The notes under the pieces: generated by a model
Seen by the model: the letters and a program-made list of their open reading frames with translations, nothing else
Databases searched by the model: none
Told to the model about the DNA's origin: nothing
In this document: piece by piece, positions 33,458 to 49,300 of the stretch
How positions within the stretch are numbered: the first letter of the stretch is position 1
Layout of the letters: the number at the start of each line of letters is the position of its first letter
Assembly (NCBI GenBank): GCA_963666115.2
Contig: CAXXET010000004.1
Coordinates: 128,001-192,000, forward strand
Length of the DNA: 64,000 nucleotides
Source: Dehalococcoidia bacterium
GTDB lineage: Bacteria; Chloroflexota; Dehalococcoidia; UBA6926
Reading direction: 5' to 3'
Translations under genes and position numbers: made by a program

Positions 33458-33545
33458 TCATCCCCTCCAACGGCAAAGCGCCAACCTCCGGCGGCAAAAG
33501 GCCAACCACCACTACCCGCCAATCATAGCCACACCCGCCGCCGTC

Positions 33546-33573
33546 TGTCATTCTGAGCGTAGCGAAGAATCTC
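33546..33573 (+). repeat. REP-like element TGTCATTCTGAGCGNAGCGAAGAATCTC, copy 2
   Basis: Match to 21756 and 56267. Confidence 0.85.
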
Positions 33574-33593
33574 ACGTCGGCTACACTCATCAC

Positions 33594-33968
33594 ATGGACT
33601 TCTTCAACGTCGGAGGACTTGAGCTTCTCTTTCTCGCCGGCCTCGCCATCATCATCGTCGGCCCCTCACGCGCCGCGGAGATGGCAGGCCAGATTGGCCG
33701 GCTCATCGCCAGCGCCCGCCGCACCATCAACTCCATGACCGAGGATTTGCGTACCCAGGCCCGCGAAGACACGGAGCCGCTGCGCTCCGCCCGTGACTCC
33801 CTCCGCGACGTTGAATCCAACCTCCGCCGCCCCTTCGACCTGTCCGAACCCCGCCCCAACACAGGCCGCGCCGAGCCGCCCCCGGAGGACGCGCCCCCGC
33901 CCGACGCGCCATCCGCTGATGAAAACGAACCCCCCGCCGAAGAGCCGCCGACGGAGGAAACCAGGTGA
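33594..33968 (+). CDS. tatB: Tat translocase TatB-like
   Basis: FNVGGLELLFLAGLAIIIVGP, amphipathic helix, Pro/Glu tail; overlaps tatC. Confidence 0.8.
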   Translation: MDFFNVGGLELLFLAGLAIIIVGPSRAAEMAGQIGRLIASARRTINSMTEDLRTQAREDTEPLRSARDSLRDVESNLRRPFDLSEPRPNTGRAEPPPEDAPPPDAPSADENEPPAEEPPTEETR

Positions 33969-34711
33969 CAACGCCTGAGCCGGAGGGCGTGTCCGAAGCG
34001 ACAATGCCGCTGTCCGCCCATCTGCGGGAGCTGCGAACGCGCCTCATGTGGACGTTCATCGTCGTCGGCATCGGCGCCGTCGGCGCATTCGCCATCGGAA
34101 ACCGGCTCATTGACGTGCTGCTGATTCCATTCCCGGACGACATCGAAGTGGTCCAGATCGACGTGCTCGAGGGCGTCCGCGTCCGCATGAAGATCGCCAT
34201 CCTGGGCGGACTCATCGTCGCATTCCCGATGATCCTCTACCAGACGATCATGTTCATCCGTCCCGCCCTGACCGGCTCCGAGAAGCGTTTCGTCTATCTC
34301 GCCTTGCCAATCGTGAGTGTGCTGTTCGCGGCAGGAATCACGTTCGCGTTCTTCGTGCCGATACCCGTGATGATGCAGATACTCCCTCAATTCCTCGGGG
34401 ATGACATTGAGCCTCAGATTCGCATCGACAGCATCGTCGGGACAACCGTCTGGCTTATCTTTGCGATGGGGCTGCTCTTTGAGCTACCAATCGTCATGTA
34501 CCTGCTTGCGCGGCTGGACATCATCGACCCGGCAAGCCTGCGGACGAAGCGCAAGGGGGCAATCCTGCTCTCATTCGTCGCCGCCGCAATCATCACCCCC
34601 ACAGGCGACCCCATCAACATGGTCATCTGGGGCATCCCAATCTGGATCCTCTACGAAATCGGCCTCCTAATGGCCCGCCTCGCCGCCTGGCAGCGCAAAC
34701 GCGGCAGCTAG
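33965..34711 (+). CDS. tatC: Tat translocase TatC
   Basis: MPLSAHLRELRTRL, FIRPAL...EK, FELP, AAIITPTGD, LYE. Confidence 0.95.
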   Translation: MTTPEPEGVSEATMPLSAHLRELRTRLMWTFIVVGIGAVGAFAIGNRLIDVLLIPFPDDIEVVQIDVLEGVRVRMKIAILGGLIVAFPMILYQTIMFIRPALTGSEKRFVYLALPIVSVLFAAGITFAFFVPIPVMMQILPQFLGDDIEPQIRIDSIVGTTVWLIFAMGLLFELPIVMYLLARLDIIDPASLRTKRKGAILLSFVAAAIITPTGDPINMVIWGIPIWILYEIGLLMARLAAWQRKRGS

Positions 34712-34724
34712 GCCCTAAGCGCAG

Positions 34725-35195
34725 TCAGGCCCCCGCGCGAGAGTCCCCGTCGTCCCACAGATCCTCATCATCCAGCCAACCATTCTTCTGCGCCAGCCGG
34801 ATCCAAAGCCGCTGCGTATGCCGGGAATCCCGCCGCAGCTCCTCCAGGTTTTCATCCAGCCTGCGCATAATTTCAGCGAGGGTCTCCATCAGTCCGCTGT
34901 GGTCAATCAGCCTCTGCTCATGATCCCTAAGCATCGCGCGATTCTCACGCATCATCGCTTCATGCTCCTTGAGCCACGCGCGATGCTCGCTCATCGCCGC
35001 CTCATGCTCCTTGCGCCACGCGCGATCTTCGATCGCCGCCGCCTCATGCTCCCTGCGCCACGCCTCATGATTCGCGCGGTCTTCCGCAAGCGCCATCTCC
35101 TGATTCCGGATAATCGTGTCATGATCCTGCGACATGTTCATGAGCCGCATCAGCGCCTCTTCAAACATCTCCGTGCGGCTCTTTTCGTCAGTCAT
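34725..35195 (-). CDS. Hypothetical coiled-coil protein with 14-aa repeats
   Basis: EHEAAAIEDRAWRK / EHEAAMSEHRAWLK / EHEAMMRENRAMLR; SD GGGAG. Confidence 0.65.
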   Translation of the reverse strand: MTDEKSRTEMFEEALMRLMNMSQDHDTIIRNQEMALAEDRANHEAWRREHEAAAIEDRAWRKEHEAAMSEHRAWLKEHEAMMRENRAMLRDHEQRLIDHSGLMETLAEIMRRLDENLEELRRDSRHTQRLWIRLAQKNGWLDDEDLWDDGDSRAGA

Positions 35196-35228
35196 GCCCG
35201 CTCCCCTCTCGCGCCCCGGGACGGCAGC

Positions 35229-35432
35229 CTACGACTTCCCAGCAGTCGAATCCGATTCCGCGCCATCCTTGGCGTCCTCGGACGTCTTGCCCTCCTCCAA
35301 CTCCGCCCCCTTGCGGAACTCCCGGATCGAGCTTCCCATCGAGCGCGCAAGCCCGGGCAGCTTGGCGCCCCCAAAAATCAACAGGATAATCGCCAGGATC
35401 AGGATCAGTTCGAGTCCGCTTGGAATGGTCAT
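35229..35432 (-). CDS. tatA: Tat translocase TatA
   Basis: ELILILAIILLIFGGAKLPGLARSMGSSIREFRKG. Confidence 0.92.
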   Translation of the reverse strand: MTIPSGLELILILAIILLIFGGAKLPGLARSMGSSIREFRKGAELEEGKTSEDAKDGAESDSTAGKS

Positions 35433-35505
35433 GCTGCCTCCCTGCTCATGCCCACAGTATACGCGATGATGCTACTCGATACGCGATGATGCCGCCCGCG
35501 CCGCC

Positions 35506-36153
35506 CTACTCAAGGATCAGCGTGCCGAACGCGAAGACGAAGAACGTCGCAATAGCCAGCAGCCCCGTCCCAAGCGGCACCATCAGCATGGTCAAAATAG
35601 CCTGCGTGCCCACGAATCGGTTTGCCTCCCGAATCGCGATATACGTCAGGCGGATCGCCGTCACCGATGTCAGCGCCACGCCCAGCGTCATCACCCACGG
35701 TCGCGCCCCGTCCGCCACGAGCCATAGCAGCGCCGTCGGCACAAGGAGCCACACCGGCAGCGCGGCATACGTCATCGCCGCAAGCTCCTCCGCAATGCTC
35801 GCCTCCCCCTCGAACGCCTTGCCGATCAAGTGCAGCAGCATCATCGAAAACAGGAACGCCGCGTACCCGCCCCCAACAAACCCCGCCGCCCCAACCACGG
35901 CCCCCACAAACCCGTCAAAATCCCCAACCAGCCCCCCGGCGCCAAACAACGCCCCCGCCACCGCCAAACCAACGACCAGCGCCCCCGTCCCCCGCAGAGT
36001 CGGCTGATCGATAGCAATATCGCTGAACGTCCACGTAGGAGTCCGCACAATCCCGCGCAGATAAAACGCCAAGGGCCGCCTCCGCCGCTGCGGCCCCGGC
36101 GCCCCAACGCCGGGGTTGTCCCCGCTTACCGATGAGTTCGGATCGATGAACAT
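35506..36153 (-). CDS. Yip1-like membrane protein (terminal array member, MFIDP leader)
   Basis: GIVRTPTWTFSDIA, about 5 TM helices, HLIGKAFEG, AIREANRF. Confidence 0.7.
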   Translation of the reverse strand: MFIDPNSSVSGDNPGVGAPGPQRRRRPLAFYLRGIVRTPTWTFSDIAIDQPTLRGTGALVVGLAVAGALFGAGGLVGDFDGFVGAVVGAAGFVGGGYAAFLFSMMLLHLIGKAFEGEASIAEELAAMTYAALPVWLLVPTALLWLVADGARPWVMTLGVALTSVTAIRLTYIAIREANRFVGTQAILTMLMVPLGTGLLAIATFFVFAFGTLILE

Positions 36154-36177
36154 GGAGGCACGCCACAAGTCAGTTCT

Positions 36178-36960
36178 TCAGTTTCCAATTCTTACTTCCT
36201 GCCCCAATAGGAGCGCAATGACAATCGAGACGACAAGCAAGAGCATCGCTGCCACGTACCCTAGGATGACCGTCGGCAAAAGGCTTAAGGCAACCGTCAG
36301 GGCAGCTTTCGCTGGATGGAGGCCATAGTTCTCCTTGACCATTATGACCGCCAGTGAACCAATCAAGAGGAGTCCGGTTAAGACAAGCCCCAACGCAACA
36401 TTAGTTGCCGCGTGGAAGGCATCGTAGAAGATACTGGGGCCTCCAGGGCTGATGAACAGGGAAGCTGCTAGGATTCCGCCAGAAAATACCGCGTAGCCTA
36501 TCGCCGAAATCACTGACAACGCGGAAAAGGTCCTCAGGAACCCTGCGCGGCGCCCGAACCGTTCGGCTATCCAATGAAGATTCAGTGACCACGCGCCAAT
36601 GACGCTGATGGCGATGCAGCAATTCAAGGGGTTGACAGCTCCAATGGCGTCAACTTCACCTGATTTGAATTGATCAATCGACAGAGACCCATACTCGAGC
36701 AGGTGATAAGCAACAAAGAATGCTGCGCCACACACCGCGATGCCTACGCTAGCCGTCCCTACCCCGGCCAGCAACGGCCGCCGCTCCAAAATCTCCCGCA
36801 CAGTCGCCCCAGGCCGAATCACAAGCCCCACATACCACCGCAACACCGTCCGCAGCCAAAACTCCGACGGATAGCCCCCACCTGCAACAGGAGCATCCCC
36901 GCCCGAAATCGGCGGCTGGCTCGCACTCTCTTCTCCGTTCATCGCATCGCTCCCCGCCAC
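36178..36960 (-). CDS. Yip1-like membrane protein, leader type I
   Basis: SEFWLRT.LRWYVGLVIRPGATVREI leader; HWIAERFG; KENYGL. Confidence 0.75.
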   Translation of the reverse strand: MAGSDAMNGEESASQPPISGGDAPVAGGGYPSEFWLRTVLRWYVGLVIRPGATVREILERRPLLAGVGTASVGIAVCGAAFFVAYHLLEYGSLSIDQFKSGEVDAIGAVNPLNCCIAISVIGAWSLNLHWIAERFGRRAGFLRTFSALSVISAIGYAVFSGGILAASLFISPGGPSIFYDAFHAATNVALGLVLTGLLLIGSLAVIMVKENYGLHPAKAALTVALSLLPTVILGYVAAMLLLVVSIVIALLLGQEVRIGN

Positions 36961-36991
36961 GCAGTCTACCCGTTAAACGCCAAGCATCGAT

Positions 36992-37699
36992 TCACACGGA
37001 TCCCATCCCGATCAAGAGTGCGATCACCAGCAGCGCAAGCGCAACAGTCAACGCAATGGGCAGCGCCGCTAGGCCAACGAGGAGTGCTACCCCCGAACGG
37101 ATTGGACCCAATTCATAGTTAGCCCTAATGATGTAATAGGTTAGGAAAATCGTCCAGGCTGTCGGGGCCACGCCAATTGCCGTAAGGATTCGCGGTCCCG
37201 TCGAGAAAGCCAGACTGACGCCGGCCACTTCCAGCAAGGCAGCTATGGCGATTGCCAGTATCCCAGTCATGACCGCCACGGCCGAGAGGTTGAGCAGCCC
37301 AACGTACATTGCAGACAGTTCTCCCCATCCGCGCATCAGACTCGCAACTAAGTGGAATACGACCGCAAGTACGCCTATAGATATGACGGCTATGAAGCTG
37401 ATTATGACTATCACTATCAGGCCGCCTACATTTGTGGGGAAACCGCCGCTGGGCTCCAGTGAATGTGACAGACCTCCGGAACCCGTATAGACGTTCCAAA
37501 GGAACAGCCACAGATACGAGCCGATGCACGCGGCGATCGCCCCTGCCCAAAACGGCCGCCGCTCCACAATCTCCCGCACCGTCGCCCCAGGCCGAATCAC
37601 AAGCCCCACATACCACCGCAAAAGCGTCCGCAGCCAAAACTCGCTCCGCACAGATTCTCCGGCAGCATCACTCGACGTCATCGCATCATCCCTCGCCAC
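36992..37699 (-). CDS. Yip1-like membrane protein, leader type II
   Basis: Shared leader; HLVASLMRG; RANYEL. Confidence 0.75.
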   Translation of the reverse strand: MARDDAMTSSDAAGESVRSEFWLRTLLRWYVGLVIRPGATVREIVERRPFWAGAIAACIGSYLWLFLWNVYTGSGGLSHSLEPSGGFPTNVGGLIVIVIISFIAVISIGVLAVVFHLVASLMRGWGELSAMYVGLLNLSAVAVMTGILAIAIAALLEVAGVSLAFSTGPRILTAIGVAPTAWTIFLTYYIIRANYELGPIRSGVALLVGLAALPIALTVALALLVIALLIGMGSV

Positions 37700-37856
37700 G
37701 CAGTCTACACGTAAACGCTAAGCGCGGGCCCGCACCCGCCGCTGCGGCCCCGGCGCCCCAACACCGGAGGCATCCCCCCCCCGCCAAAGGATCAATAAAC
37801 ATCAACCCATACTATGGCATGGAGCCTGCAAGCGGCCTGGATTCTGAAGAGCCTTA

Positions 37857-38640
37857 TCAGGACGGCCACATTGCCGAAACCATCGACACAACAGCGAACA
37901 AAGTCAAAACCCACCCCGCAAAGGCCGCAAAGCCAAGGACGAGAGTAGGAATGATGCAGGCAGCGACAACTAATGCCGCCTTGCGTGCGCCGAGGTCATA
38001 GTTTTCCTGTATCAGAACGTATGCGATCACGTGGGCCCAGACGAGGACTCCTATGATGGCAAGGAGTGTCCCCGTGAGCAGCGCATTAACCGCGTCAAAG
38101 CCTGACGTGTTGAAGTAGACAAGCCCAAAACCAATAATCACCAGGCCGAACGCGCAAAACGCGACCGTAGAGACCAGCATCATGGAAACGATCGACGTCA
38201 AGTACCTGCCCTCGCCGCCTAGGTTGCCCCCAAGCACGTGCATCACAAGTACCCAGAGACCCAGGAGAGCGGAAGCCGTGGCGCAGTACCCGGCCAGTGC
38301 CAGGGGGGGCCACGATCAACGCTCTCACCGCCTCCGAGTCCTCCATGGCCATGGCAGCCACGTCAGGCCCCCCGTCGGCAAGGAAGATTCCGGCCATTGT
38401 GCCGATATACGAACCAAGAATGCCCAAACACAGCGAACCAAGCCCCAGCCAGAGTGACGGCCGCCGCTCCACAATCTCCCGTATCGTCGCCCCAGGCCGA
38501 ATCACAAGCCCCACATACCACCGCAAAAGGGTCCGTACCCAAAACTCCGACGGATAGTCCCCTCTGGTGACAGGAGTATCCCCGCCTGATGACGGCTGGC
38601 GCGCAATCTCATCCTCGTTCATCGCATCGTTCCCCACCAC
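37857..38640 (-). CDS. Yip1-like membrane protein, leader type I, frameshift at G-run near 38303
   Basis: ORFs 38095..38640 and 37857..38246 together align with 39544..40323 (GFGLVYFNTSGFD, ENYDL). Confidence 0.7.
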
Positions 38641-38645
38641 GCAGT

Positions 38646-38729
38646 CTACCTGTTAAACGCTAAACGCAGGGCTGCGTCGTGCTGCCAGCCTGCTGCTCCG
38701 CTCAACCCCGTTGCCGGATCAATGAACAT
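38646..38729 (-). other. 27-aa mini-ORF MFIDPATGLSGAAGWQHDAALRLAFNR
   Basis: Manual translation; paralog at 40329-40412. Confidence 0.45.
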
Positions 38730-38757
38730 GGCCTAATGAACCGCCCATACGTCGCAG

Positions 38758-39504
38758 CTATTCAAAGTGGGAGACGCCCATTAGGGCTGTGAGCCCCAGG
38801 ATAACCAGAACCCACGGAATATACGCGAAGAATATCCCAATGACAAAGGTTGATATCACGCTTGCCGCAACAGCCGTGGCCGCCTTCAGGGTTCTAATCC
38901 CATGCGTGCTCCGCAGAAGCAATGTCGCCAGAACGGCAACCCACAGGAGGCTCATCGGGCCTATAGCAAGAGTGGCGAAGCCAGCCACGTTCTCCGTCCC
39001 CGTCCTGTCGGGGTCAATGATCGGATACGCAATGCCCACAACAAGCATGCCTGCCGAAAGAAGCGTGAATCCGGCCAATAGGATGAACATCATCGAGCTG
39101 AAAGTTGTCTCCCAGTACTCACTGCGTCCAAACATCTTCCCGGTCCAGTGCAGCGAGACTCCCCATATAGCCGCATAAGTCACCACTAAACCGCAGTATC
39201 CTGTTAGCTCGACTACGGCAACAAGCCAGCCATTGTCTTCACCGACCATTGCCAAGTGGAAGCCTTCCCTGCCATCCAACAGCCACACACTTGCTGCAAC
39301 TGCCTCAAACGAGACAAGCGTCCCGACAATTGCCGTTAGCAACCCATATCGTAACGGCGGCTCCCTCAATACGATCTCCCGCACCGTCGCCCCAGGCCGA
39401 ATCACAAGGCCCACATACCACCGCAAAAGCGTCCGCAGCCAAAACTCGCTCCGCACAGATTCTCCGGCAGCATCACTCGACGTCATCGCATCATCCCCCG
39501 CCAC
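38758..39504 (-). CDS. Yip1-like membrane protein, leader type II
   Basis: Shared leader; HWTGKMFG; RSTHGI. Confidence 0.75.
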   Translation of the reverse strand: MAGDDAMTSSDAAGESVRSEFWLRTLLRWYVGLVIRPGATVREIVLREPPLRYGLLTAIVGTLVSFEAVAASVWLLDGREGFHLAMVGEDNGWLVAVVELTGYCGLVVTYAAIWGVSLHWTGKMFGRSEYWETTFSSMMFILLAGFTLLSAGMLVVGIAYPIIDPDRTGTENVAGFATLAIGPMSLLWVAVLATLLLRSTHGIRTLKAATAVAASVISTFVIGIFFAYIPWVLVILGLTALMGVSHFE

Positions 39505-39543
39505 GCAGTCTACCCGCTAAACGCCAAGCGCAGGGCTGCATCA

Positions 39544-40323
39544 TCAAACCACCCCCATCGCCGCAAGCATCGGCACAACGGCGAATAGAGTCCATATCCA
39601 CCCCACAAAGGCCGCAAGCCCAAAGATGAAAGTAGGAATGATGCAGACAGTGACCGTAATTATCGCCATACGTGTATCGAGGTCATAGTTTTCCCGCACC
39701 AGGACAGTTGCCGCCACATGACCCCAGACCAGGCCGCCTACGACGGCTATGAGCACCGTCATCAGCATCGCATTAATCACGTCAAAGCCTGACGTGTTGA
39801 AGTAGACAAGCCCAAAACCAACAATCATCAGGCCAAACGCAGAGAACGCGACCGTGCAGACCAACATCATCGAAACTAGCGACGTCGAATAAATGCCCCT
39901 GCCGCCCAGTTGAAGGCCGAGCGCGTGCATCACAAGTACCCAGAGACCCAGCAGAACGGGGGCTGCGGCAAAATATCCGGCTATTGCGAGGGGGCCGACT
40001 ATCAATGCTGTCACTGCCTCTGAGTCGTCCAAGGGAACGCCGTCAGGGCCGCCGCTTGCAAGCAAGATGCCCGCCACTGTGCCAATATACGAAGCAAGGA
40101 TGCCAAACCACAGGGAGCCAAGCCCCAACCAGAATGAAGGCCGCCGCTCCACAATCTCCCGCACCGTCGCCCCAGGCCGAATCACAAGGCCCACATACCA
40201 CCGCAAAAGCGTCCGCAGCCAAAACTCCGACGGATACCCTCCGCCTGCAACAGGTGCATCCCCACCCGGCATCGTCGGCTGGCGCGCAGTCTCATCTCCG
40301 TTCACCGCATCATCCCTCGCCAC
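39544..40323 (-). CDS. Yip1-like membrane protein, leader type I
   Basis: Shared leader; HALGLQLGGRG; RENYDL. Confidence 0.75.
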   Translation of the reverse strand: MARDDAVNGDETARQPTMPGGDAPVAGGGYPSEFWLRTLLRWYVGLVIRPGATVREIVERRPSFWLGLGSLWFGILASYIGTVAGILLASGGPDGVPLDDSEAVTALIVGPLAIAGYFAAAPVLLGLWVLVMHALGLQLGGRGIYSTSLVSMMLVCTVAFSAFGLMIVGFGLVYFNTSGFDVINAMLMTVLIAVVGGLVWGHVAATVLVRENYDLDTRMAIITVTVCIIPTFIFGLAAFVGWIWTLFAVVPMLAAMGVV

Positions 40324-40328
40324 GCAGT

Positions 40329-40412
40329 CTACCCGCTAAACGCCAAGCGCGGGGCTGCGTCATGGTGCCGCCCTGTTGCTCCACTCAAACCCGCCAAAGG
40401 ATCAATAAACAT
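40329..40412 (-). other. 27-aa mini-ORF MFIDPLAGLSGATGRHHDAAPRLAFSG
   Basis: Manual translation; TAGTAT-6nt-ATG upstream. Confidence 0.45.
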
Positions 40413-40536
40413 CAACCCATACTACGGCTCAACACAACCCAACAGCTCATTCAAAAGAGACGAGGCCACTGAGAGGTCATATTGTTTATCAACCACTATG
40501 GCCGCCTGGCAGCGCACACGCAGCAGCTAGGCCTCG

Positions 40537-40626
40537 TCACGCCAACCGTTCGATGTCGGAAATTAACTTGTTCGGATGATCATCACCCACCAAGTACATC
40601 GGCACGTTTGAGTCAACAAAGATCAC
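40537..40626 (-). pseudogene. vapC (PIN toxin) remnant with internal deletion
   Basis: MIFVDSNVPMYLVGDDHPNKLISDIERLA*; GTGA overlap with the upstream antitoxin. Confidence 0.7.
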
Positions 40627-40868
40627 GAGAGATTACGGCCCACCTCAATCTCGCTGAGCATCACATCGATGTCCGCCGTAGGATGCTTGTGACGATATGC
40701 TTTCGCAATGGCACGAAGCTTGGTCTCAACCGCATCAGGCCGGTCATTTCGTGCGCGGCGGAGAACCTGCCGAACCCACTCCGCGACGGTCATGCGTTGC
40801 CCCCGGGCGATACTTTGAATCTCCCGATACTCCTCGTCATCGAACAAGACTTGCAGTCGCTTTGCCAT
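40623..40868 (-). CDS. CopG/RHH-type antitoxin (VapB-like)
   Basis: MAKRLQVLFDDEEYREIQSIARGQRMTVAEWVRQVL; PTADIDVMLSEIE. Confidence 0.8.
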   Translation of the reverse strand: MAKRLQVLFDDEEYREIQSIARGQRMTVAEWVRQVLRRARNDRPDAVETKLRAIAKAYRHKHPTADIDVMLSEIEVGRNLS

Positions 40869-40969
40869 AACAGAAGTCTATCTTACTCATGGAGCTGTAG
40901 CCACGCAATAAACGCCTACCTGGTCTCAGTACTCTACGTCTTCGCAGCAGTCTACCCATTAAACGCCAA

Positions 40970-41001
40970 GCGCGGGGCTGCGTTATGACGCAGCCCCGCG
41001 C
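40970..41001 (-). terminator. 14-bp GC-rich hairpin followed by TTGGCGTTT on the minus strand
   Basis: GCGCGGGGCTGCGT-TATG-ACGCAGCCCCGCGC, downstream of gene 41043..41681. Confidence 0.6.
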
Positions 41002-41042
41002 CCCTTTCAAAACTCTCCGCCAGAACGGCGGCCCCTCGCCTC

Positions 41043-41681
41043 CTACGTCGCGACGCCCAGCGCGATGATCAGCGCCACCCAAATGATGATGACCATGAAG
41101 ATCACAATGACGGTCACGAAAATCGAGACCAGGAATGACGCAATGCCGCTCAGCACGGCCAACAGCGTGCTCAACTGGTAGTTCTCACGAATGAGGAGAA
41201 TGCCCAAGATGGCGTACCAAATTAACACGACAATGCTGACCGCTCCGGCAATCACCGCGAACACGGACGAATCGCCTTCGCCCCTGATGAGAACGTCGAT
41301 CAGGCCCGGCACGACGGGTATTAGGCTCAGGGCCGAGAGCAGCAACAGCCCCGAAAGCATCCCGGTGTACGCTCCGACCCCGCCAAACAGCTTCGATATC
41401 AGGTGGACGATCAGGGAGGAAATGCCGGTCGCAAATGCGGCGAAACCGACGAACAGGATTGCGCCGATGATGGCGGCGACCGGCCCGATGGATATCTCCT
41501 CATCGCTGAATTGCTCAAACGTGCCGGGGTCGATCCCCAGGCCAAATCGGATGATCCCGTTCGCGATGAACACGATCAGCAGCGTCACCAGCCCAAGCCC
41601 CACCGGCCGCTCTGCCACAATCTCCCGTATCGTCTCGATGGGCCGCAGAATCAGCCCAACGTACCAGTTCAATAGCGTCAT
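41043..41681 (-). CDS. Yip1-like membrane protein (first array member)
   Basis: WYVGLILRPIETIREIVAERP, HLISKLFGGVG.Y, RENYQL. Confidence 0.8.
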   Translation of the reverse strand: MTLLNWYVGLILRPIETIREIVAERPVGLGLVTLLIVFIANGIIRFGLGIDPGTFEQFSDEEISIGPVAAIIGAILFVGFAAFATGISSLIVHLISKLFGGVGAYTGMLSGLLLLSALSLIPVVPGLIDVLIRGEGDSSVFAVIAGAVSIVVLIWYAILGILLIRENYQLSTLLAVLSGIASFLVSIFVTVIVIFMVIIIWVALIIALGVAT

Positions 41682-41798
41682 CTCGTTTTCCTCCGCTGCT
41701 TGTCGCCCCGTGCCGCTCGTCAATACCGCCCCTTAATTTTACGCCACCACGCAATCAAACCCTCCCGCCGCCCCCGCCGTGTGCGCTACAATGACCGT

Positions 41799-42701
41799 AT
41801 GACAGACGCCCTGCTTGAAACACAACTCCCCTTCCCCATGATCCATCGCGGCAAGGTCCGCGATACATACGACCTCGGCAGCGACACGCTCCTGCTGGTC
41901 GCCACCGACCGCGTCTCCGCGTTTGATGTCGTCCTCCCCACCGGCGTCCCCGGGCGCGGCATCGTCCTCTCGGAAATCTCCGCCTTCTGGTTCCGTCGCT
42001 CCGGCCATGAGTTCCCCAACCACTTCATCGGCATGGCCCATGAGCCGGAGGTCGCCAACGAATACAAGCTCGGCGACCTCGATGAGCCCGTCGCGCGCCG
42101 CGGAATGGTCGTCAAAAAGGCGGAGCGCATCGACATCGAGTGCGTCGTGCGCGGCTACATCACCGGCTCCGCGTTGGCCGAATACCGCAAGTCCGGTACG
42201 GTGCAGGGCTATGACCTGCCCCCGGACATGGTTGACTCGCAGGCCTTTGAGTCCGCGCTCTTCACCCCCACCACCAAGGAGGAGACGGGGCACGATATTC
42301 CCCTGACGGTTGACGAACTCTGGAAGCAGGTGGGCGGCAACATCGCCTGGCCCCTTGAAGAGCACAGCCTCGCCCTCTACCGCATGGCGTCCGACTATGC
42401 CCGCGCGATGGGTGTCATCCTTGCGGACACCAAGTTCGAGTTCGGCATCATAGACGGCAAGATCTCGGTGATCGACGAGCTGCTGACGCCGGACTCCTCC
42501 CGCTACTGGGACGCCAACATCTATGAGGCGGGCAAGCCCCAGCCCAGTTTCGACAAGCAGATCATCCGCGATTGGCTGACGGAATCCGGCTGGAATCGCG
42601 AGCCGCCCGCGCCGGAACTGCCCGACGACATCGTCCAGCAGACCATCGACAAGTACCGCGACGTATACCAGCGGCTAACGTCACAGGAGCTCGTCCTGTG
42701 A
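41799..42701 (+). CDS. purC: SAICAR synthetase
   Basis: RGKVRD.Y, ATDRVSAFD, ECVVRGY, ADTKFEFG, DELLTPDSSR, SFDKQ. Confidence 0.96.
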   Translation: MTDALLETQLPFPMIHRGKVRDTYDLGSDTLLLVATDRVSAFDVVLPTGVPGRGIVLSEISAFWFRRSGHEFPNHFIGMAHEPEVANEYKLGDLDEPVARRGMVVKKAERIDIECVVRGYITGSALAEYRKSGTVQGYDLPPDMVDSQAFESALFTPTTKEETGHDIPLTVDELWKQVGGNIAWPLEEHSLALYRMASDYARAMGVILADTKFEFGIIDGKISVIDELLTPDSSRYWDANIYEAGKPQPSFDKQIIRDWLTESGWNREPPAPELPDDIVQQTIDKYRDVYQRLTSQELVL

Positions 42702-42913
42702 GCATCGGCCGCATCGTCGGGAGCGCGCTCATCGGACTCGCGGCGGCGGTCATGCTGTACACCATCGTCGGCGCAGTCAGCACCGTCTGGGGCGTGGCGC
42801 AATTCGATGAGATGCCCATCACGGTCAAGCTCTTCCTGCCCGTCATATTCGGCACGCTCGCCGGAACGCTTGGCGTCATGGCCGTCCAACGCCTCCGCCA
42901 ATCCCGCAGATGA
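42698..42913 (+). CDS. Small 2-TM hypothetical protein
   Basis: GTGA overlap with purC and ATGA overlap with purS; two hydrophobic stretches. Confidence 0.6.
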   Translation: MSIGRIVGSALIGLAAAVMLYTIVGAVSTVWGVAQFDEMPITVKLFLPVIFGTLAGTLGVMAVQRLRQSRR

Positions 42914-43185
42914 ACTACCTCGCCCGCATCTACGTCACCCCAAAGCCCGGCGTCGTCGATCCCCAGGGCCTCTCCATCCTGGGCGGCCTCAAGAACCTCG
43001 GCTACGATTCCGTAACCGCCGTCCGCGCGGGACGCTACCTTGAAGTCCACCTCGGCGAAGCCCCCTCAAAACAGGACGCCGAAACCCGCACAACGGAAAT
43101 GTGCCGCCAACTGCTAGCCAACCCCGTAATAGAAGACTACCGCTTCGAAGTCACAGAGTTCCCTCTCCCTGAGGGAGAGGGCTAG
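42910..43185 (+). CDS. purS: FGAM synthase subunit PurS
   Basis: KPGVVDPQG, VRAGR, MCRQLLANPVIEDY. Confidence 0.93.
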   Translation: MNYLARIYVTPKPGVVDPQGLSILGGLKNLGYDSVTAVRAGRYLEVHLGEAPSKQDAETRTTEMCRQLLANPVIEDYRFEVTEFPLPEGEG

Positions 43186-43193
43186 GGTGAGGG
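43159..43193. repeat. REP-like palindrome TTCCCTCTCCCTGAGGGAGAGGGCTAGGGTGAGGG
   Basis: Inverted repeat CCCTCTCCCT/AGGGAGAGGG; flanks match 1383-1436. Confidence 0.75.
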
Positions 43194-43201
43194 GGACCCC
43201 C

Positions 43202-43816
43202 CTACCCCGTCAGCGTCCCCTTCGTAGACGGCGCCACTCCCGCAAACCTCTCATCGCGCCGCGTCGCCGCATCCAACGCCTTCGCCAGCGCCTTGAACGC
43301 AGACTCCGCAATGTGGTGATCGTTGACCCCGGCATGTTGCACGACGTGCAAGTTGATCCGCGCCTCCCGCGCCATCGACTCCAGCAGGTGGCCGATTAGC
43401 TCCGTTCGCAGATCGCCAACCATCGCCGATGTGAACGTCAGCCCGATGGCGGAATAGCCCCGCCCGCCTAGGTCGATTGCCGCCGTCGTCAGCGCGTCGT
43501 CCAGCGGCGCGGTCGCGTGGGCAATCCGCATGATGCCGGTTCGGTCCCCAAGCGCCTCTCCCAGCGCGCGCCCCAGCACGATGCCCACGTCCTCAGCCGT
43601 GTGGTGCCCGTCAGGATCGTTCAGCCCCTCGGCGCGAACGGTCAGGTCAAAGCCGCTGTGCCGCGCAAGCTGGTCCAGCATGTGATCCAGCATCCGGTAG
43701 CCCGTGCTGACCTCATAGTTCGCCCGCCCGTCGATGTTGATGGACACCTCCACCACCGTCTCGCCCGTCTCGCGGCGGGCGGTCGCCTGGCGCGGCGACG
43801 CTTCCTGACTTGTCAC
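43202..43816 (-). CDS. hisB: Imidazoleglycerol-phosphate dehydratase (monofunctional)
   Basis: RETGET, DHML, DGHHTAED, NDHHIAES.FK, PSTKG. Confidence 0.95.
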   Translation of the reverse strand: MTSQEASPRQATARRETGETVVEVSINIDGRANYEVSTGYRMLDHMLDQLARHSGFDLTVRAEGLNDPDGHHTAEDVGIVLGRALGEALGDRTGIMRIAHATAPLDDALTTAAIDLGGRGYSAIGLTFTSAMVGDLRTELIGHLLESMAREARINLHVVQHAGVNDHHIAESAFKALAKALDAATRRDERFAGVAPSTKGTLTG

Positions 43817-45680: not shown

Positions 45681-46898
45681 CTATTCGTACCGCAGCGCCT
45701 CGATTGGATGGAGCGACGCCGCCCGCATCGCCGGATAGATGCCGAACACCAGCCCGATGAGCATCGAAACCCCCAGCGCCAGCGCCGTAATGTCCGTGCT
45801 CACCACCGTTCGGATGTCCTCATTCGCAAGCAGCGTCATGTTCATCCCCTGCGCGATGAGCATCCCAAGCAGTACGCCGATGATCCCGCCGCCCAGGCTC
45901 AGCAGCACCGCCTCCAGCACGAACTGCGAGAGAATGTCCCACCGCCGCGCCCCAACCGCCTTGCGAATGCCGATCTCCCGCGTCCGTTCCGTCACGGACA
46001 CGAGCATGATGTTCATAATCCCGATCCCGCCGACAATCAGCGAGATGCTCGCGATGGAACCCAGGAACAGCACGAAAGCCCGCGTCGTGTCCTGGAACGC
46101 CTCCAGCGCCTGCTGTTGATTCCGAACCTCAAAATCGTCCTCGTCCGTGATGCGGTGCCGCAGGCGCAGAATCCTGCTGACCTCCCCCTCCGCCCGTTCC
46201 ATGTTGGTGACATTGCCCACGAGGACGCTGATCGTATTGACGGTCACCGCCCCCTCCACTGACCGGTCCGCGCTGAACCGGCGGTACGCCGTCGTAATCG
46301 GAATCAGGATGCGGGTGTCCTCAAAGCCGAACGCCCCGCCGCCCCTGCTTTCCAGCACGCCGATAACCGTCATCTGCCGTTCGTTTACCTTGATGCTCTG
46401 CCCAATCGGATCGCGCCCCAGGAAGAGGTCCGCCGCCGTCTGCGAGCCGAGAACCGCCACGTCCGACGCCCCGGATACGTGCGGAATGCTGATGAAGCTG
46501 CCGCTGCCGACTGCGTAATCCCGCACGTCCTGGTACTCCGGTGTCACGCCCGTGATCTCAGTCGAAACAGACCGCGCGCCAAACCGGTTGGTCACGCTCG
46601 CCGTCCCGAACGCGTTGACCTCCGGCGCAACCATGTCCACCGATGGCGCGAGCAGCGGGTCCATCAGCGCGTAGGCGTCATCTAGCGTCAGCGTTCCGTA
46701 GTCTGAATTGACGAAGAGGATATTGGTGCCAAGCTCCTGGATGAACGACGTGACCGACTCCTGCACCCCGCGCCCGATGGACATCAGCGAAATCACCGCC
46801 GCCACGCCGATCACGATGCCCAGCAGCGTCAGCAGGCTCCGCAGCTTGTTGGCTCCGACAGACTGGAGCGCCGAAAGCAGCGTCCGTTGCGGACTCAC
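45681..46898 (-). CDS. MacB/YknZ-like ABC permease
   Basis: [49 protein letters not shown]. Confidence 0.93.
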
Positions 46899-47578
46899 GC
46901 CGCGCCCCCGGTTTTCTCATCGCTGACGATTTCCCCGTCCCGCATCAGGATGACCCGCTCCGCAAAACGCGCGATGTCCTCCTCGTGCGTAACGATGATC
47001 ACCGTGATCCCCGATGATCGGTTAAGCTCTCGGAGCAGCTCGATGATCTCCAAACTGGAGCGGGAATCCAGGTTGCCCGTCGGCTCGTCGGCGAGCAGGA
47101 TGGACGGCTCGTTGACCAGCGCCCGCGCGATGGCAACTCGCTGCTGCTGTCCCCCGGACATCTCCGTTGGCCGGTGCCCCGTCCTGTCCGCAAGCCCCAC
47201 GCGCCCCAGCGCCTCCCGCGCCAAACGCGCGCTGCCGCCCTTTCGCGCGTACAACAGCGGCAGTTCCACGTTCGCCTCCGCCGTGAGGCGCGGCAGCAGG
47301 TTGTAGCTCTGGAACACGAACCCGATCTTACGGTTTCGGATCGCCGCCAGCCGTGAATCGGACAGCCGCCCCACGCCCACCCCATCGAGCGAATACCGGC
47401 CTGACGTGGGAACGTCCAAACAGCCCACGATATTCATCATGGTGGACTTGCCGGAGCCGGACGCGCCCATGATCGCGACCATCTCCCCGTCCCCGATGGT
47501 CAGGCTCACCCCGCGCAGCGCTGCAATCTCTACCTCGCCCATCCGGTAGATCTTCCGCACGTCCGCCAGCTCGATCAC
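46895..47578 (-). CDS. MacB/YknY-like ABC ATPase
   Basis: [33 protein letters not shown]. Confidence 0.95.
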
Positions 47579-47612
47579 GATGCCGCCTCCGCAGCCGCCG
47601 CGCCCAACGGCG

Positions 47613-49300
47613 CTACCCGACCCGCCTCACGGTCGTTGTCGTCGTCTGCCGCCGGATGCCGGGGCCGCCGAACATCCCGAAGTCCTCGGCCTCGGACACG
47701 TGCATGATGACCTCTTCGCCCTCCTCCACGCCCGACTCCACCACGACCCAGAAGTCGTCGTTGTTGCCCAGCGTCACGGGGCGCGGCTCTATCGTGTCGT
47801 CCGCCATGACGCGCAGCAGTGGCTCCTGGAACGTGCCGTAGATCGACTGCACGGGAACCAGCAGGACGTCGAACTCTTCCTCCACGGCCATCCGCGCAGT
47901 CGCGTTCATGCCCTCCCGCAGGTCAACGCCCGGCACAATGTCGATGCGGACCATCACGGAGAAAACGGCGATGCCCTGTTCCAGCTGCGCCCCGGACGAT
48001 ATGGACGATATTGACCCGGTGAACACCTGCCCCGGCATCGCATCGAGGGTAATTTCTGCCGCATCGCCGTAGCTGATCTGCAGCACGTCGGTCTCATCCA
48101 CCTGCCCCTGGAGTTCCACGACGGACGTGTCAATGATCTCCACGGCAATACGTGATTCCACCTGGATCGCCTCGCCCGCCACCGCGTTCAGGACTGCCAC
48201 AATCCCGTCGATTGGCGCGCGAACGGTCGCGTCCTCCCGCCGTTGCAGCGCGTCATCCAGCGCGACCTGCGCCGTGACAAGCTCGGCCTCCCGCAGGCTC
48301 CGCGTGTACCCCGCCGGCCCGCCGGAGGCATCGTCAACGGCCTGCCGTGCCTGCTCATGCCTGTCCCGCGCCGCGTCCAGCTTGTCCTGTGCGTCTCGAA
48401 TTGCGCTGTCCCTGGCCGTTATCGCGCCGTCCAGCGCGTCGCGGGCAGAGATAAGGCCGTTCCACGCGTCATCAAATCCCTTCTGTAAACAGTGTCCATT
48501 AAGAGGATGCGCGTCCGTGCTCTCACACGCGGCGACGACCTCTCCCGGATAAAAATTGACGACGCCGTACACAAGCGTCTCCGACCATCTGGTGGCCGGG
48601 TCGTCCTGCGGGGCGCCGCTCGAATAGATGCCCCGCCCCGTGTCGTCCCCAACGGCCTCGATGAGCAGTTCTTCCAGGTTCACTCCCCATGCCGTCAACA
48701 AGTCCTTCGGGGCCGTCCCCAACTCATCCGCCCCCAGCGTGACGCCCAGCCAAGCCGAGAAAATATTCCGATAGTCGTCTTCCCCTTTACCAACGTCATC
48801 CTGCGCAGTGTCGATCTTGTCCCGGTGTTCCTTTTCCATATCTGCGAGGGCCCGCTCGGCATCCGAAACATCCGCCTCTGCGGTAACCAGGCCGGACTGC
48901 GTGTCCGCAAGCAGGTTCGCAAGCGCATCCTCAGCGTCGCGCAGGGCAATCTGCGCCTTCGCAACGTCCATGTCGTGCCGCGCCACCGTCGCGTCATCCA
49001 GCGTCAGCAACGCCTGCCCTTCAATGACGGCCTGCCCCTCTTCAACCAACACGTCCTTGGACGATTGAATCCGCGCTGAGACGTATCGACTCCCGCCGCG
49101 GCAGCGTGAGCGTGCCGCCCGTCTGTATCTGGTTGACCAGATCCCCCGCGCGTCACTGCCACCAGTTGCTCATTCTCGGTGAGCCCGCCGGCCGCTTGGT
49201 CGTTCGAGAGCTGCCCGCCAACGAAGACGACCGCCCCCGCCGCGCCCGCAATCAGCACGCCGATGATCACGATGAATTGCCACGGACGAAGACGTCGCAT
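47613..49300 (-). CDS. MacA/YknX-like membrane-fusion protein, frameshifted near 49050-49150
   Basis: N-terminal TM; VEEGQAV..GQ.L; coiled coil; VRAPIDGIV; VDETDV..I..G. Confidence 0.8.

What the first reader, a model, noticed from the sequence alone, without database searches (positions are those of the whole stretch)
35506..41681. Yip1-like gene array with constant leader and variable body (candidate diversification system)
Seen: seven co-oriented Yip1-like genes. Five share a near-identical upstream motif and leader (SEFWLRTLLRWYVGLVIRPGATVREI), then diverge abruptly into bodies with less GC-biased codon usage than the flanks. 37569-37708 and 39374-39513 differ at only two positions by my reading, yet their bodies barely align. 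Two leader types alternate I-II-I-II-I, and 37857-38640 and 39544-40323 are similar along their whole length. Inference: bodies are swapped or acquired behind a homogenised 5' module, as in polymorphic immunity or antigen arrays. I know of no described Yip1 system of this form, and no recombinase is visible nearby.
Basis: partly seen in the sequence, partly recalled or inferred. Interest (0 to 1): 0.85.

Follow-up and report, generated by a model that had tools for sequence, protein, structure and literature searches.

The report
Mosaic Yip1 membrane-protein gene array
A marine or sponge-associated Dehalococcoidia bacterium carries a strain-variable row of Yip1-type membrane-protein genes that share one almost identical gene start but have very different bodies, a pattern made by ordinary recombination whose biological purpose is still unknown.

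Summary
Seven co-oriented Yip1-family genes lie between purC and tatA. The five middle ones share an upstream box and an N-terminal leader at 82-100% nucleotide identity, then drop abruptly to background. One of the five carries a +1 frameshift.

Leader and body have different histories:
- The five leaders form one clade (99/100 support).
- The bodies each group with bodies from other genomes; holding them as one clade is rejected (p-AU 1.4e-5).
- Within the genome, synonymous divergence is 0.08-0.18 in the leader and 1.9 to saturated in the body.

Across the genus, the two outer genes are present in all 15 genomes inspected. Middle genes number 0 (8 genomes), 1 (5), 3 (1) and 5 (this genome); one genome keeps only a leader remnant. 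Metagenome contigs from a 94-97% identical strain join G1 directly to the DNA upstream of G6, skipping all five middle genes. Public proteins give 34 full-length leader-bearing members with about 20 body types.

No recombinase, integron or retroelement lies in the window. The leaders and duplicated copies of G1's 5' end are the homology anchors, so ordinary homologous recombination suffices.

Function is inferred only. The one studied bacterial Yip1 protein, YknW, assists a MacB-type pump against a peptide toxin. This genome's only such pump lies 4 kb away.

The parts
41043..41681 (-). G7, outer Yip1 gene next to purC (conserved anchor); ATG at 41681
   Evidence: Pfam Yip1 E 8.5e-10. A match of 31-65% aa identity at the same place in 15 of 15 genus genomes inspected; 50-65% in the 13 clear full-length orthologues, 35% in G009, truncated in G021. 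Evenly conserved along its length.
40947..40996 (-). Orphan copy of the upstream box, with a perfect 11-bp hairpin just 5' of it; followed by the RHH gene, not by a Yip1 gene
   Evidence: Repeat family D6, 88%, and inverted repeat I1; alignment.
40537..40906 (-). RHH (VapB-like) gene 40623-40868 plus a 29-codon stub that reads like the start of a PIN toxin (40537-40626). A 340-nt segment that lies between tatA and tatC in relatives.
   Evidence: blastn 86-88% to L021 and L027 over 340 nt; tblastn positions; weak NikA-like RHH hit E 0.0016. The PIN reading of the stub is my own reading and was not tested.
40359..40428 (-). Remnant of G1's 5' end (ATG at 40412, peptide MFIDP...) upstream of G6. 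Right side of the strain-level joint.
   Evidence: Repeat D10, 97% to 37780-37818; matches the G1 starts of relatives; joint 36110->40390 in runs X1 and X3; alignment.
39544..40358 (-). G6: upstream box (40306-40358), long N-extension, leader, body type shared with G4
   Evidence: Pfam Yip1 E 2.4e-7. AlphaFold2 model with five long helices, mean pLDDT 74.7. Body pairs with metagenome protein P0010, support 99. The start is either GTG 40305, in register with the ATG of the other copies, or ATG 40272, the start of the 242-aa database protein P0001.
38758..39539 (-). G5: upstream box (39487-39539), short N-extension, leader, own body type; ATG at 39486
   Evidence: Pfam Yip1 E 1.1e-11; 2 mismatches in 140 nt against G3; body groups with P0014, L022_M and P0012, support 97.
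38676..38729 (-). Remnant of G1's 5' end (ATG at 38729) upstream of G4
   Evidence: Alignment of upstream regions.
37857..38675 (-). G4: upstream box, long N-extension, leader, G6-like body. Broken by one extra base in a run of seven C (38303-38309).
   Evidence: Global alignment to G6; split ORFs 38095-38640 and 37857-38246; dN/dS against G6 of 0.32 and 0.59 in the two halves. Whether the extra base is real or an assembly error is open.
37734..37818 (-). Remnant of G1's 5' end (ATG at 37802) upstream of G3. This is the copy most like the G1 starts of relatives and of the strain in run X1.
   Evidence: Repeats D9 (84%) and D10 (97%); blastn 78-82% to the G1 starts of five relatives; the 14 letters between the sides of the X1 joint match this copy.
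36992..37733 (-). G3: upstream box, short N-extension, leader, own body type; ATG at 37681
   Evidence: Pfam Yip1 E 1.4e-6; body lies in an 8-row clade with foreign bodies, support 95.
36178..36987 (-). G2: upstream box, long N-extension, leader, own body type; ATG at 36942
   Evidence: Pfam Yip1 E 2.8e-6, 0.9 bits under the cut-off. Body is 55-59% aa identical to L020_Mb, P0006, P0011 and P0017, support 100.
35506..36153 (-). G1, outer Yip1 gene next to tatA (conserved anchor); likely ATG at 36153. Left side of the strain-level joint at 36110.
   Evidence: Pfam Yip1 E 7.1e-10; orthologues 62-78% aa, directly upstream of tatA, in 15 of 15 genomes inspected; DNA homology to relatives starts at 36089-36110.
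45681..49052 (-). MacB-type exporter: permease 45681-46898, ATPase 46895-47578, membrane-fusion protein 47613-49052. Candidate partner by inference only.
   Evidence: Pfam MacB_PCD+FtsX, ABC_tran, HlyD; NCBIfam MacB and RND_mfp; the only such permease and fusion protein found in the genome by tblastn at E <= 1e-8.

Best explanation
The locus is a recombination-built, strain-variable array of Yip1-family (YknW-like) inner-membrane proteins in a marine or sponge-associated Dehalococcoidia genus.

Shown:
- Two outer genes, G7 and G1, are fixed in the genus.
- Between them sit 0 to 5 'middle' genes. Each has its own upstream box, a short N-terminal extension, a nearly invariant leader of about 32 residues and a five-helix body.
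- The bodies fall into about 20 very different types that circulate in the genus.
- Within a genome the box and leader are kept alike by gene conversion, while the bodies keep separate, much older histories.
- A close strain lacks the whole middle block. The deletion or insertion ends lie in duplicated copies of G1's 5' end.

Inferred mechanism: RecA-type homologous recombination uses the leaders and the G1-5' remnants as anchors. Unequal crossing-over adds and removes genes. Crossing-over inside the leader re-pairs N-extensions with bodies. Recombination with DNA from other strains can replace a body. No dedicated enzyme is needed.

Inferred function, about one chance in four: the charge pattern suggests the invariant leader and the few other conserved residues face the cytoplasm and dock to a common partner, while the divergent bodies give different specificities. 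The closest precedent is YknW of Bacillus, which assists the MacB-type pump YknXYZ against a peptide toxin. The array would then be a stock of specificity or immunity modules against membrane-active agents, kept diverse by frequency-dependent selection.
For: Mosaic structure.
- Identity is 80-100% in the leader and 36-60% in the bodies. G3 and G5 differ at 2 of 140 nt.
- Within the genome, dS is 0.08-0.18 in the leader and 1.9 to saturated in the body, in 4 of 4 paralogue pairs with unlike bodies.

Incongruent trees.
- The five leaders of this genome form a clade (99/100). Forcing G2 with L020_Mb is rejected (p-AU 1.2e-5), and forcing G6+G4 with L019_M is rejected (p-AU 1.5e-4).
- The four intact bodies are not a clade (lnL difference 235.8, p-AU 1.4e-5). 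G2, G5 and G6 each sit in a small starred clade with foreign bodies; G3 lies in a starred 8-row clade in which all seven other rows are foreign.
- In genome G021 two copies have 97% identical leaders and background-level bodies.

Reassortment. N-extension type needs 6 changes on the body tree, and the group table is no better than shuffled labels. Body clusters of 80-94% identity carry both extension types.

Population pool.
- A leader-only search found 19 proteins, 4 of them from this genome.
- A profile search of 1.84 billion representatives found 24 clusters at E <= 1e-30.
- 34 full-length members fall into 20 body clusters at 40% identity. Mean column identity is 0.84 in the leader and 0.12-0.28 elsewhere.

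Copy-number variation. The 15 genomes inspected hold 0 middle genes (8 genomes), 1 (5), 3 (1) or a leader remnant only (1).

Strain variation. A contig joint 36110->40390 skips 4279 bp in X1 (depth 10) and X3 (depth 2.4), on contigs 94-97% identical in the flanks.

Anchors. Remnants of G1's 5' end lie upstream of G6, G4 and G3.

No dedicated machinery. No recombinase in 46 ORFs, no tRNA within 19 kb, no Rfam hit.

Function lead.
- YknW is described as a Yip1-family protein that modulates assembly of YknXYZ, which protects against the SDP toxin (passages read in PMC4887032 and PMC4338810).
- The genome's only MacB-type permease and fusion protein lie 4 kb from the array.
- 2 of 20 sampled Yip1 loci in the phylum have an ABC ATPase and FtsX-type permease directly beside the Yip1 gene.
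- In G6 the leader holds 6 Lys/Arg and both predicted outer loops hold none, as expected for an N-terminus on the inside.
Against: - Function is untested. The pump is not in an operon with the array: purC, purS, hisB and hisC lie between them, and purC and purS are on the other strand.
- 18 of the 20 sampled Yip1 loci have no ABC genes within 9 kb.
- PADLOC, PHROGs and NCBIfam give nothing for the six intact Yip1 proteins.
- No toxin gene is adjacent.
- The bodies differ in the membrane helices as much as in the loops. That fits loose constraint as well as it fits diversifying selection.
- dN/dS where measurable is 0.1-0.6, not above 1.
- Many family members look truncated or frameshifted: G4, L019_M and 7 of the 19 leader-bearing entries among the 27 proteins read. 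This fits decay as well as turnover.
- The sigma-70 scan finds no promoter at the box.
- The public proteins come from few sources and kin, so they are not independent.
- The assembly's own reads were not available.
Confidence: 0.6

Rival explanations
1. Neutral birth-and-death with passive conversion. The middle genes are dispensable, weakly constrained duplicates of the outer Yip1 genes. Their bodies drift apart and decay. The leader stays alike only because it is the one segment similar enough for gene conversion. On this reading the diversity has no adaptive role.
For: - 8 of 15 genomes have no middle gene and one has only a leader remnant.
- A close strain lacks all five.
- Frameshifted or truncated members are common.
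- GC3 is low in the middle genes of this genome and of 5 relatives, as in weakly selected or weakly expressed genes.
- dN/dS is 0.3-0.6 for G4/G6.
- Divergence is as high in the helices as in the loops.
Against: - Body types persist across species: G2 type at 55-59% aa, G6 type at 43% aa (66% nt against L019_M), G5 type at 44%.
- Full-length open frames are kept in 34 members.
- A few body residues are conserved across all types: His116, Trp183, and Tyr196 of the Arg-Glu-Asn-Tyr motif.
- The leader is conserved at protein level across species even where the codons differ.
All four points indicate purifying selection on working proteins.
Confidence: 0.2
2. A mobile or horizontally acquired island. 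The middle block came in as foreign DNA carried by an element that targets the 5' end of G1. The G1-5' remnants would be its duplicated target or attachment sites.
For: - GC3 is atypical in the middle genes and in the RHH gene.
- An antitoxin-like gene with what reads like a toxin stub lies inside the interval and is displaced relative to relatives.
- Duplicated G1 starts bound the sub-blocks.
- The leaders of this genome are closer to those of G021 (77-86% nt) than to those of five other species (52-69%), although G021's flanking genes are not closer.
Against: - No integrase, transposase or relaxase in 46 ORFs of the 64-kb window.
- No tRNA nearby.
- The same slot holds middle genes in 7 of the 16 genomes with DNA in hand (this genome and 6 relatives); low GC3 was measured in this genome and five of them. 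They therefore look like long-term residents of the genus.
- The remnants differ in length and in allele type, unlike fixed attachment sites.
Confidence: 0.1
3. Programmed within-clone variation, meaning phase or antigenic variation. A dedicated recombinase or slipped-strand switch would turn copies on or off or shuffle them at high frequency.
For: - The layout recalls variable surface-protein families.
- G4 is out of frame at a run of seven C, a kind of tract that can slip.
- The low-depth X1 contigs on parts of the array (table 2) could come from a minor form beside the main form without the block; those depths may include other organisms.
Against: - No recombinase or invertase in the window.
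- Only 2 inverted-repeat pairs were found, neither of them flanking a promoter.
- Only one of the five copies has such a tract.
- Every copy has its own box, ribosome-binding-like site and start codon, so nothing marks a single expression site.
Confidence: 0.05
4. Assembly artefact. The repeated leaders caused chimeric joins or collapsed copies.
For: Repeats of 140-230 nt at 90-100% identity can mislead short-read assemblers. The source reads could not be found.
Against: - The array lies inside a 537-kb contig of a 9-contig genome.
- Independent metagenome contigs match across two internal junctions: 37787-38040 at 96% and 40041-40338 at 91%.
- Relatives, several of them single-contig genomes, show the same architecture.
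- Separately assembled public proteins show the same leader on many bodies.
Confidence: 0.03

Closest known systems
YknW of the Bacillus YknWXYZ transporter (passages read in PMC4887032 and PMC4338810, which cite Yamada et al. 2012)
   Same: A small bacterial Yip1-family multi-span membrane protein. A MacB-type set of permease, ATPase and membrane-fusion protein is present nearby. 2 of 20 sampled Chloroflexota Yip1 loci have the ABC genes directly adjacent.
   Different: YknW is a single conserved gene inside the pump operon. Here there are up to seven paralogues, five of them mosaic and strain-variable, and they lie 4 kb from the pump and not in its operon. No binding or protective role is shown.
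Variable surface-protein gene families with a conserved 5' untranslated region and leader and variable bodies, such as Mycoplasma vsp/vlp/vsa
   Same: A tandem family; a nearly identical upstream region and N-terminal coding part; very different remaining parts; recombination between copies.
   Different: Those are lipoproteins with signal peptides, switched by site-specific recombinases or repeat tracts within a clone. Here the proteins are five-helix integral membrane proteins, the 'leader' is part of the Yip1 domain, no switch was found, and variation is seen between strains and species.
Orphan toxin-tip/immunity cassettes downstream of cdiA or rhs genes
   Same: A short constant segment precedes each variable module and serves as a homology anchor for swapping. 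Arrays differ between strains.
   Different: There is no large toxin gene, no toxin/immunity pairing and no secretion genes at this locus. Each unit here is a complete gene with its own start.
Eukaryotic Yip1/Yif1 (YIPF) proteins (abstract of PMC6682643 seen in a search listing)
   Same: The same Pfam family, with about five membrane helices.
   Different: These are eukaryotic Golgi/ER trafficking proteins. Nothing here bears on vesicle traffic. The idea that G7 and G1 pair as Yip1 and Yif1 do is my own and was not tested.
Earlier findings of this scan: leader-plus-variable-body arrays kept alike by recombination (e1-4064492 in Saccharibacteria, e1-5580625 in a giant virus, e1-5629261 on an actinobacterial plasmid-like element)
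   Same: A shared promoter and gene-start block on unrelated or fast-evolving bodies, in a strain-variable slot, with homologous recombination as the proposed cause.
   Different: Different protein families, different organisms and different leaders. These are unchecked notes and I use them only as analogies.

Membership tests
Pfam Yip1 (PF04893) | Match to the family profile at or above the curated cut-off (28.6 bits) | tested here: met
   G1 39.5, G3 28.7, G5 45.3, G6 31.2 and G7 39.2 bits. G2 scores 27.7 bits, just under the cut-off (E 2.8e-6). The two halves of G4 give no hit; G4 is assigned by 76% nt identity to the G6 body.
Pfam Yip1 (PF04893) | Multi-span topology of about five membrane helices after a cytoplasmic N-terminus | tested here: met
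   The AlphaFold2 model of G6 has helices at 47-74, 83-121, 128-158, 163-196 and 200-238, mean pLDDT 74.7. The leader holds 6 Lys/Arg and the predicted outer loops hold none. Orientation is inferred from the charge rule and was not measured.
YknW-type accessory subunit of a MacB-type ABC exporter | Encoded in one operon with the membrane-fusion protein, ATPase and permease | tested here: not met
   The pump genes lie at 45681-49052. purC, purS, hisB and hisC lie between them and the array.
YknW-type accessory subunit of a MacB-type ABC exporter | Physical association with the pump | not testable with these tools
   It needs co-purification or a solved complex.
YknW-type accessory subunit of a MacB-type ABC exporter | Protection against a peptide toxin | not tested
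   The organism is uncultured. See the next steps.
Polymorphic toxin / immunity arrays | An adjacent toxin gene with a variable C-terminal tip, each tip paired with an immunity gene | tested here: not met
   Pfam finds no toxin or secretion domain in the 11 ORFs of the array region or in 46 other ORFs of the window.
Integron cassette array | An integron integrase, and attC sites bounding the cassettes | tested here: not met
   No integrase was found. The repeats bounding the units are coding leaders and remnants of G1's 5' end, not imperfect inverted attC-like sites.
Diversity-generating retroelement | A reverse transcriptase, and a template repeat nearly identical to the variable region | tested here: not met
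   No reverse transcriptase was found. The variable bodies are at background identity to one another, while the near-identical parts are the constant ones.
Phase-variable surface-protein families (vsp/vlp-like) | A conserved 5' region and leader on variable bodies | tested here: met
Phase-variable surface-protein families (vsp/vlp-like) | A site-specific recombinase or a repeat tract that switches expression; a lipoprotein signal peptide | tested here: not met
   No recombinase was found. The leader is part of the Yip1 domain and is followed by five helices, so it is not a signal peptide. One C7 run sits in G4 only.

The most novel reading that the evidence does not exclude
The locus is a population-level stock of interchangeable specificity modules built on the Yip1 fold. 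Each body recognises a different outside agent, such as a membrane-active peptide toxin, a phage or a host factor. All bodies plug, through the invariant cytoplasmic leader, into one common partner: the single MacB-type pump, or the fixed G7/G1 pair. Strains would then differ in what they resist. This would be a new kind of polymorphic immunity locus in symbiotic bacteria, maintained by ordinary recombination at the leader.
Probability: 0.2. Interest if true: 0.8.

Novelty: new variant of a known kind. Interest (0 to 1): 0.6.

Why it matters
Bacterial Yip1-family proteins are widespread: 73 of 151 sampled Chloroflexota genomes have one, as do E. coli and B. subtilis among the control genomes. 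In the papers I found, only YknW has a described role.

Here the family shows an invariant docking-like segment on about 20 very different bodies, with gain and loss between close strains. That pattern is what one expects of proteins that meet a changing outside agent. It offers a direct handle on what bacterial Yip1 proteins do.

It is also a clean case in which concerted evolution and long-lived diversity sit side by side within single genes, with the recombination anchors visible in the sequence.

Three full-text searches found no paper that describes such a Yip1 array. The library held is incomplete, so this does not prove absence.

Tried and rejected
- Complex prediction of the ABC ATPase, the MacB-type permease and G6: no verdict (score 0.00, mark 0.32). 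It counts neither way.
- Foldseek of the G6 model against the PDB: no match at E <= 0.001. The best rows were unrelated helical bundles.
- PADLOC, PHROGs and NCBIfam on the six intact Yip1 proteins: no family.
- Rfam on 33000-44000: nothing.
- Sigma-70 and terminator scan: no promoter-like site at the box. Reading the box as a promoter rests only on a -10-like hexamer, TAGACT or TAAACT, kept 19-22 nt before the start in 12 of 13 middle genes of 7 genomes.
- RNAalifold on the box: consensus energy only -1.3. In four relatives (L019, L021, L023 and, more weakly, L024) a 3-5-bp inverted repeat embraces the hexamer, with one compensatory change between L019 and L021/L023. It is degenerate in this genome, so I make no claim about it.
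- JGI metagenome scans with the leader DNA and with leader peptide patterns: no relatives.
- Sequencing-run search: only three runs, holding 5-8% of the words (marine and sponge metagenomes). The source sample was not found, so the read-level test of the assembly and of copy number could not be done. The parts of the array without contig cover in those runs say nothing.
- Earlier-findings look-ups by place and by sequence: nothing.
- Mobile-element origin: considered and left as a low-ranked rival (no recombinase, no tRNA).
- The idea that the leader is conserved simply because every Yip1 N-terminus is: rejected as the whole story. G7 and G1 orthologues are evenly conserved along their length (0.60-0.85 per 30-residue block), whereas the middle genes show 0.84 against 0.12-0.28.

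Full report
WHAT IS THERE

On the minus strand, read in the direction of transcription from purC towards tatA, the interval holds these genes:
- G7 (41043-41681)
- a small ribbon-helix-helix gene with a 29-codon stub behind it (40537-40868)
- G6 (39544-40305)
- G5 (38758-39486)
- G4 (37857-38622)
- G3 (36992-37681)
- G2 (36178-36942)
- G1 (35506-36153)
- tatA (35229-35432)

Six of the seven hit Pfam Yip1 (PF04893) at E 1e-11 to 3e-6. Five are above the curated cut-off and G2 is 0.9 bits under it. G4 is a G6-like copy, 76% nt identical over the body. One extra base in a run of seven C (38303-38309) breaks its frame.

In the whole 2.07-Mb, 9-contig genome, Yip1 matches occur only in this array. 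The shared upstream box also occurs only here.

Record OZ242191.1, the representative of a sister species, is titled 'MAG: Dehalococcoidia bacterium'. The only public runs that hold parts of the stretch are marine and sponge metagenomes, each with a small share.

- Identity in 60-nt windows is 80-100% across the upstream box and leader. It falls to 36-60% right after the codons for ...ERRP in every pair except G4/G6.
- 37569-37708 and 39374-39513 differ at exactly 2 of 140 positions.
- Long and short N-terminal extensions alternate along the array.
- GC3 is 0.63-0.65 in the middle genes. It is 0.75-0.90 in ten flanking or nearby genes and 0.81 in G1 and G7. The same contrast is seen in five relatives.

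GENE STARTS AND THE BOX

Comparison with middle genes of six other species places the true start at the ATG six codons into the GTG frames (GTG in G6). It is preceded by a purine-rich ribosome-binding-like site and, 19-22 nt upstream, by a hexamer TAGACT or TAAACT. The hexamer is kept in 12 of 13 middle genes of 7 genomes.

I read the box as promoter plus 5' untranslated region, but this is inference. A sigma-70 consensus scan does not pick it up, and Rfam finds nothing.

LEADER AND BODY HAVE DIFFERENT HISTORIES

Leader. On the 96-nt leader core the five copies of this genome form one clade (99/100). Forcing G2 with its body-orthologue L020_Mb is rejected (p-AU 1.2e-5). Forcing G6+G4 with L019_M is rejected (p-AU 1.5e-4).

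Body. On the bodies (25 proteins) the four intact copies of this genome are not a clade (lnL difference 235.8, p-AU 1.4e-5). Their nearest groupings are:
- G2 with L020_Mb, P0006, P0011 and P0017 (support 100)
- G6 with P0010 (99)
- G5 with P0014, L022_M and P0012 (97)
- G3 inside a starred 8-row clade whose seven other rows are foreign (95)

I left L020_Ma and the two frameshifted genes out of the body tree.

Synonymous divergence. Within a genome, dS is 0.08-0.18 in the leader and 1.9 to saturated in the body. Selection on the protein cannot produce that step, so the leader has been copied between paralogues recently.

Other genomes. In G021 two copies have 97% identical leaders on bodies at background identity. 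Leaders also carry genome-specific residues shared by all copies: GATV here and SPTI in the G021 lineage. This is concerted evolution.

A POOL OF BODIES IN THE GENUS

- A search with the leader alone found 19 proteins, four of them from this genome and 15 from ENA assemblies.
- A profile of these, run against 1.84 billion representatives, found 24 clusters at E <= 1e-30, 41 at <= 1e-10 and 219 at <= 1e-3. I read the best 27 new ones.
- 34 full-length leader-bearing proteins fall into 20 body clusters at 40% identity, or 23 at 50%.
- Mean column identity is 0.84 in the leader and 0.12-0.28 in every helix and loop.
- Only a His, a Trp and the Tyr of an Arg-Glu-Asn-Tyr motif stand out in the body.
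- Body clusters of 80-94% identity carry either of two N-terminal extension types. On the body tree the extension type is distributed no better than shuffled labels. Crossing-over therefore happens inside the leader.
- G7 and G1 orthologues are evenly conserved along their length. The leader/body contrast is thus a property of the middle genes alone.

VARIATION BETWEEN SPECIES AND STRAINS

With G6 as query, all 21 other species of the genus have a match and none of 19 genomes outside it do. In the 15 genus genomes whose interval I fetched, G7 and G1 orthologues flank the slot in every case, although G7 is truncated in G021. Middle genes in those genomes number as follows:
- 0 in 8 genomes
- 1 in 5 genomes (frameshifted in G013)
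- 3 in G021
- only a 31-37-residue leader remnant in G009

For the other six, fragmented, genomes I have only.

Contigs of runs X1 and X3 are 94-97% identical to the flanks. They join 36110 directly to 40390 with 14 other letters between, skipping 4279 bp that hold G2 to G6. In that strain the order is G7, RHH, G1.

Independent contigs of run X2 match across the G4 end and the next remnant (37787-38040, 96%) and across the G6 leader (40041-40338, 91%).

THE ANCHORS

Copies of G1's 5' end, beginning with the codons for MFIDP, lie upstream of G6, G4 and G3. The copy before G3 is the most like the G1 starts of relatives. It also matches the letters between the two sides of the X1 joint. G021 has such a remnant before its third middle gene.

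The array therefore reads as: [remnant] G6 G5 | [remnant] G4 | [remnant] G3 G2 | G1.

Two crossovers between these direct repeats would turn this array into the X1 form, or the reverse.

Together with the leaders, these repeats are enough for unequal crossing-over, for deletion, and for replacement by DNA from other strains. The window holds no integrase, transposase, invertase or reverse transcriptase among 46 other ORFs at E <= 1e-5. The nearest tRNA is more than 19 kb away.

WHAT IT MAY DO

The AlphaFold2 model of G6 (mean pLDDT 74.7; the leader is low at about 56) has a short N-terminal helix and five long helices. Charges place the leader and the conserved loop residues on the inside.

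In the papers I found, the only bacterial Yip1-family protein with a described role is YknW. It is required with the MacB-type pump YknXYZ for protection against the SDP peptide toxin and modulates the assembly of that pump (passages read in PMC4887032 and PMC4338810).

This genome's only MacB-type permease and membrane-fusion protein, with their ATPase, lie 4 kb away at 45681-49052. They are not in the same operon as the array. Of 20 Yip1 loci sampled across the phylum, 2 have an ABC ATPase and an FtsX-type permease directly beside the Yip1 gene.

This is a lead and not a result. I give the 'specificity module for a common partner' reading about one chance in four.

RIVALS

The rivals are neutral birth-and-death with passive conversion, a mobile island, programmed phase variation and misassembly. 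They are set out in their own section with the evidence for and against each.

VERDICT

The mechanism is ordinary homologous recombination and not a dedicated system. The function is open.

Three full-text searches found no description of such a Yip1 array. I could not read the supplements of any genome paper on these organisms.

Noticed in passing
window 56638-60517 (+): An OLD-family ATPase with a TOPRIM domain (665 aa) is followed by a UvrD-type helicase (632 aa). I recall this pairing as the Gabija anti-phage system; I did not check it against PADLOC.
   Followed up: no
window 40537-40906 (-): An RHH (VapB-like) gene with a 29-codon stub that reads like the start of a PIN toxin lies inside the Yip1 interval. 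In six relatives the RHH gene lies between tatA and tatC, and in three of them the same 340-nt DNA segment (80-88% nt) is found there. The strain in run X1 has it at the same place as this genome.
   Followed up: partly
window 34725-35195 (-): A 156-aa protein rich in His, Glu, Ala, Arg and Trp, with internal repeats (DNA repeat D12 at 35000-35063), fills the tatA-tatC gap. It has no Pfam or NCBIfam hit. Partial relatives occur in two genus genomes.
   Followed up: no
window 35229-36153 (-), and L019-L033: G1 sits directly upstream of tatA on the same strand in 15 of 15 genus genomes inspected. The gap is about 55-73 nt between the tblastn matches, so the two may be co-transcribed.
   Followed up: no
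L019, L021, L023, L024 (upstream of the middle gene): In four relatives a 3-5-bp inverted repeat embraces the TAAACT hexamer, with a compensatory change between L019 (GGAGT/ACTCC) and L021/L023 (CGAGT/ACTCG); the repeat is weaker in L024. It could be an operator or a small hairpin. It is degenerate in this genome.
   Followed up: partly
L020 (G021), interval positions 54-1255: In G021 only the C-terminal 113 residues of the G7 orthologue remain. A divergent G7-like gene (Ma) follows, and its stop abuts the start of the next middle gene.
   Followed up: no
P0030, P0031, P0033, P0034, P0036, P0043, P0046; L019: 7 of the 19 leader-bearing entries among the 27 proteins read are short or change into unrelated sequence after the leader or part of the body. 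The single middle gene of G013 is frameshifted. Either decay is frequent or these are contig ends and assembly errors.
   Followed up: partly
G2 C-terminus (window 36178-36210) and P0014: G2 and P0014 have different body types but end with a very similar tail...GQEVRIGN and ...GEEVRLGN. This hints at mosaicism at the 3' end as well.
   Followed up: no
for example G063:C179, G147:C48, G075:C5, G102:C135: Tandem pairs of Yip1 genes are common elsewhere in Chloroflexota. I did not look at whether they also share homogenised starts.
   Followed up: no
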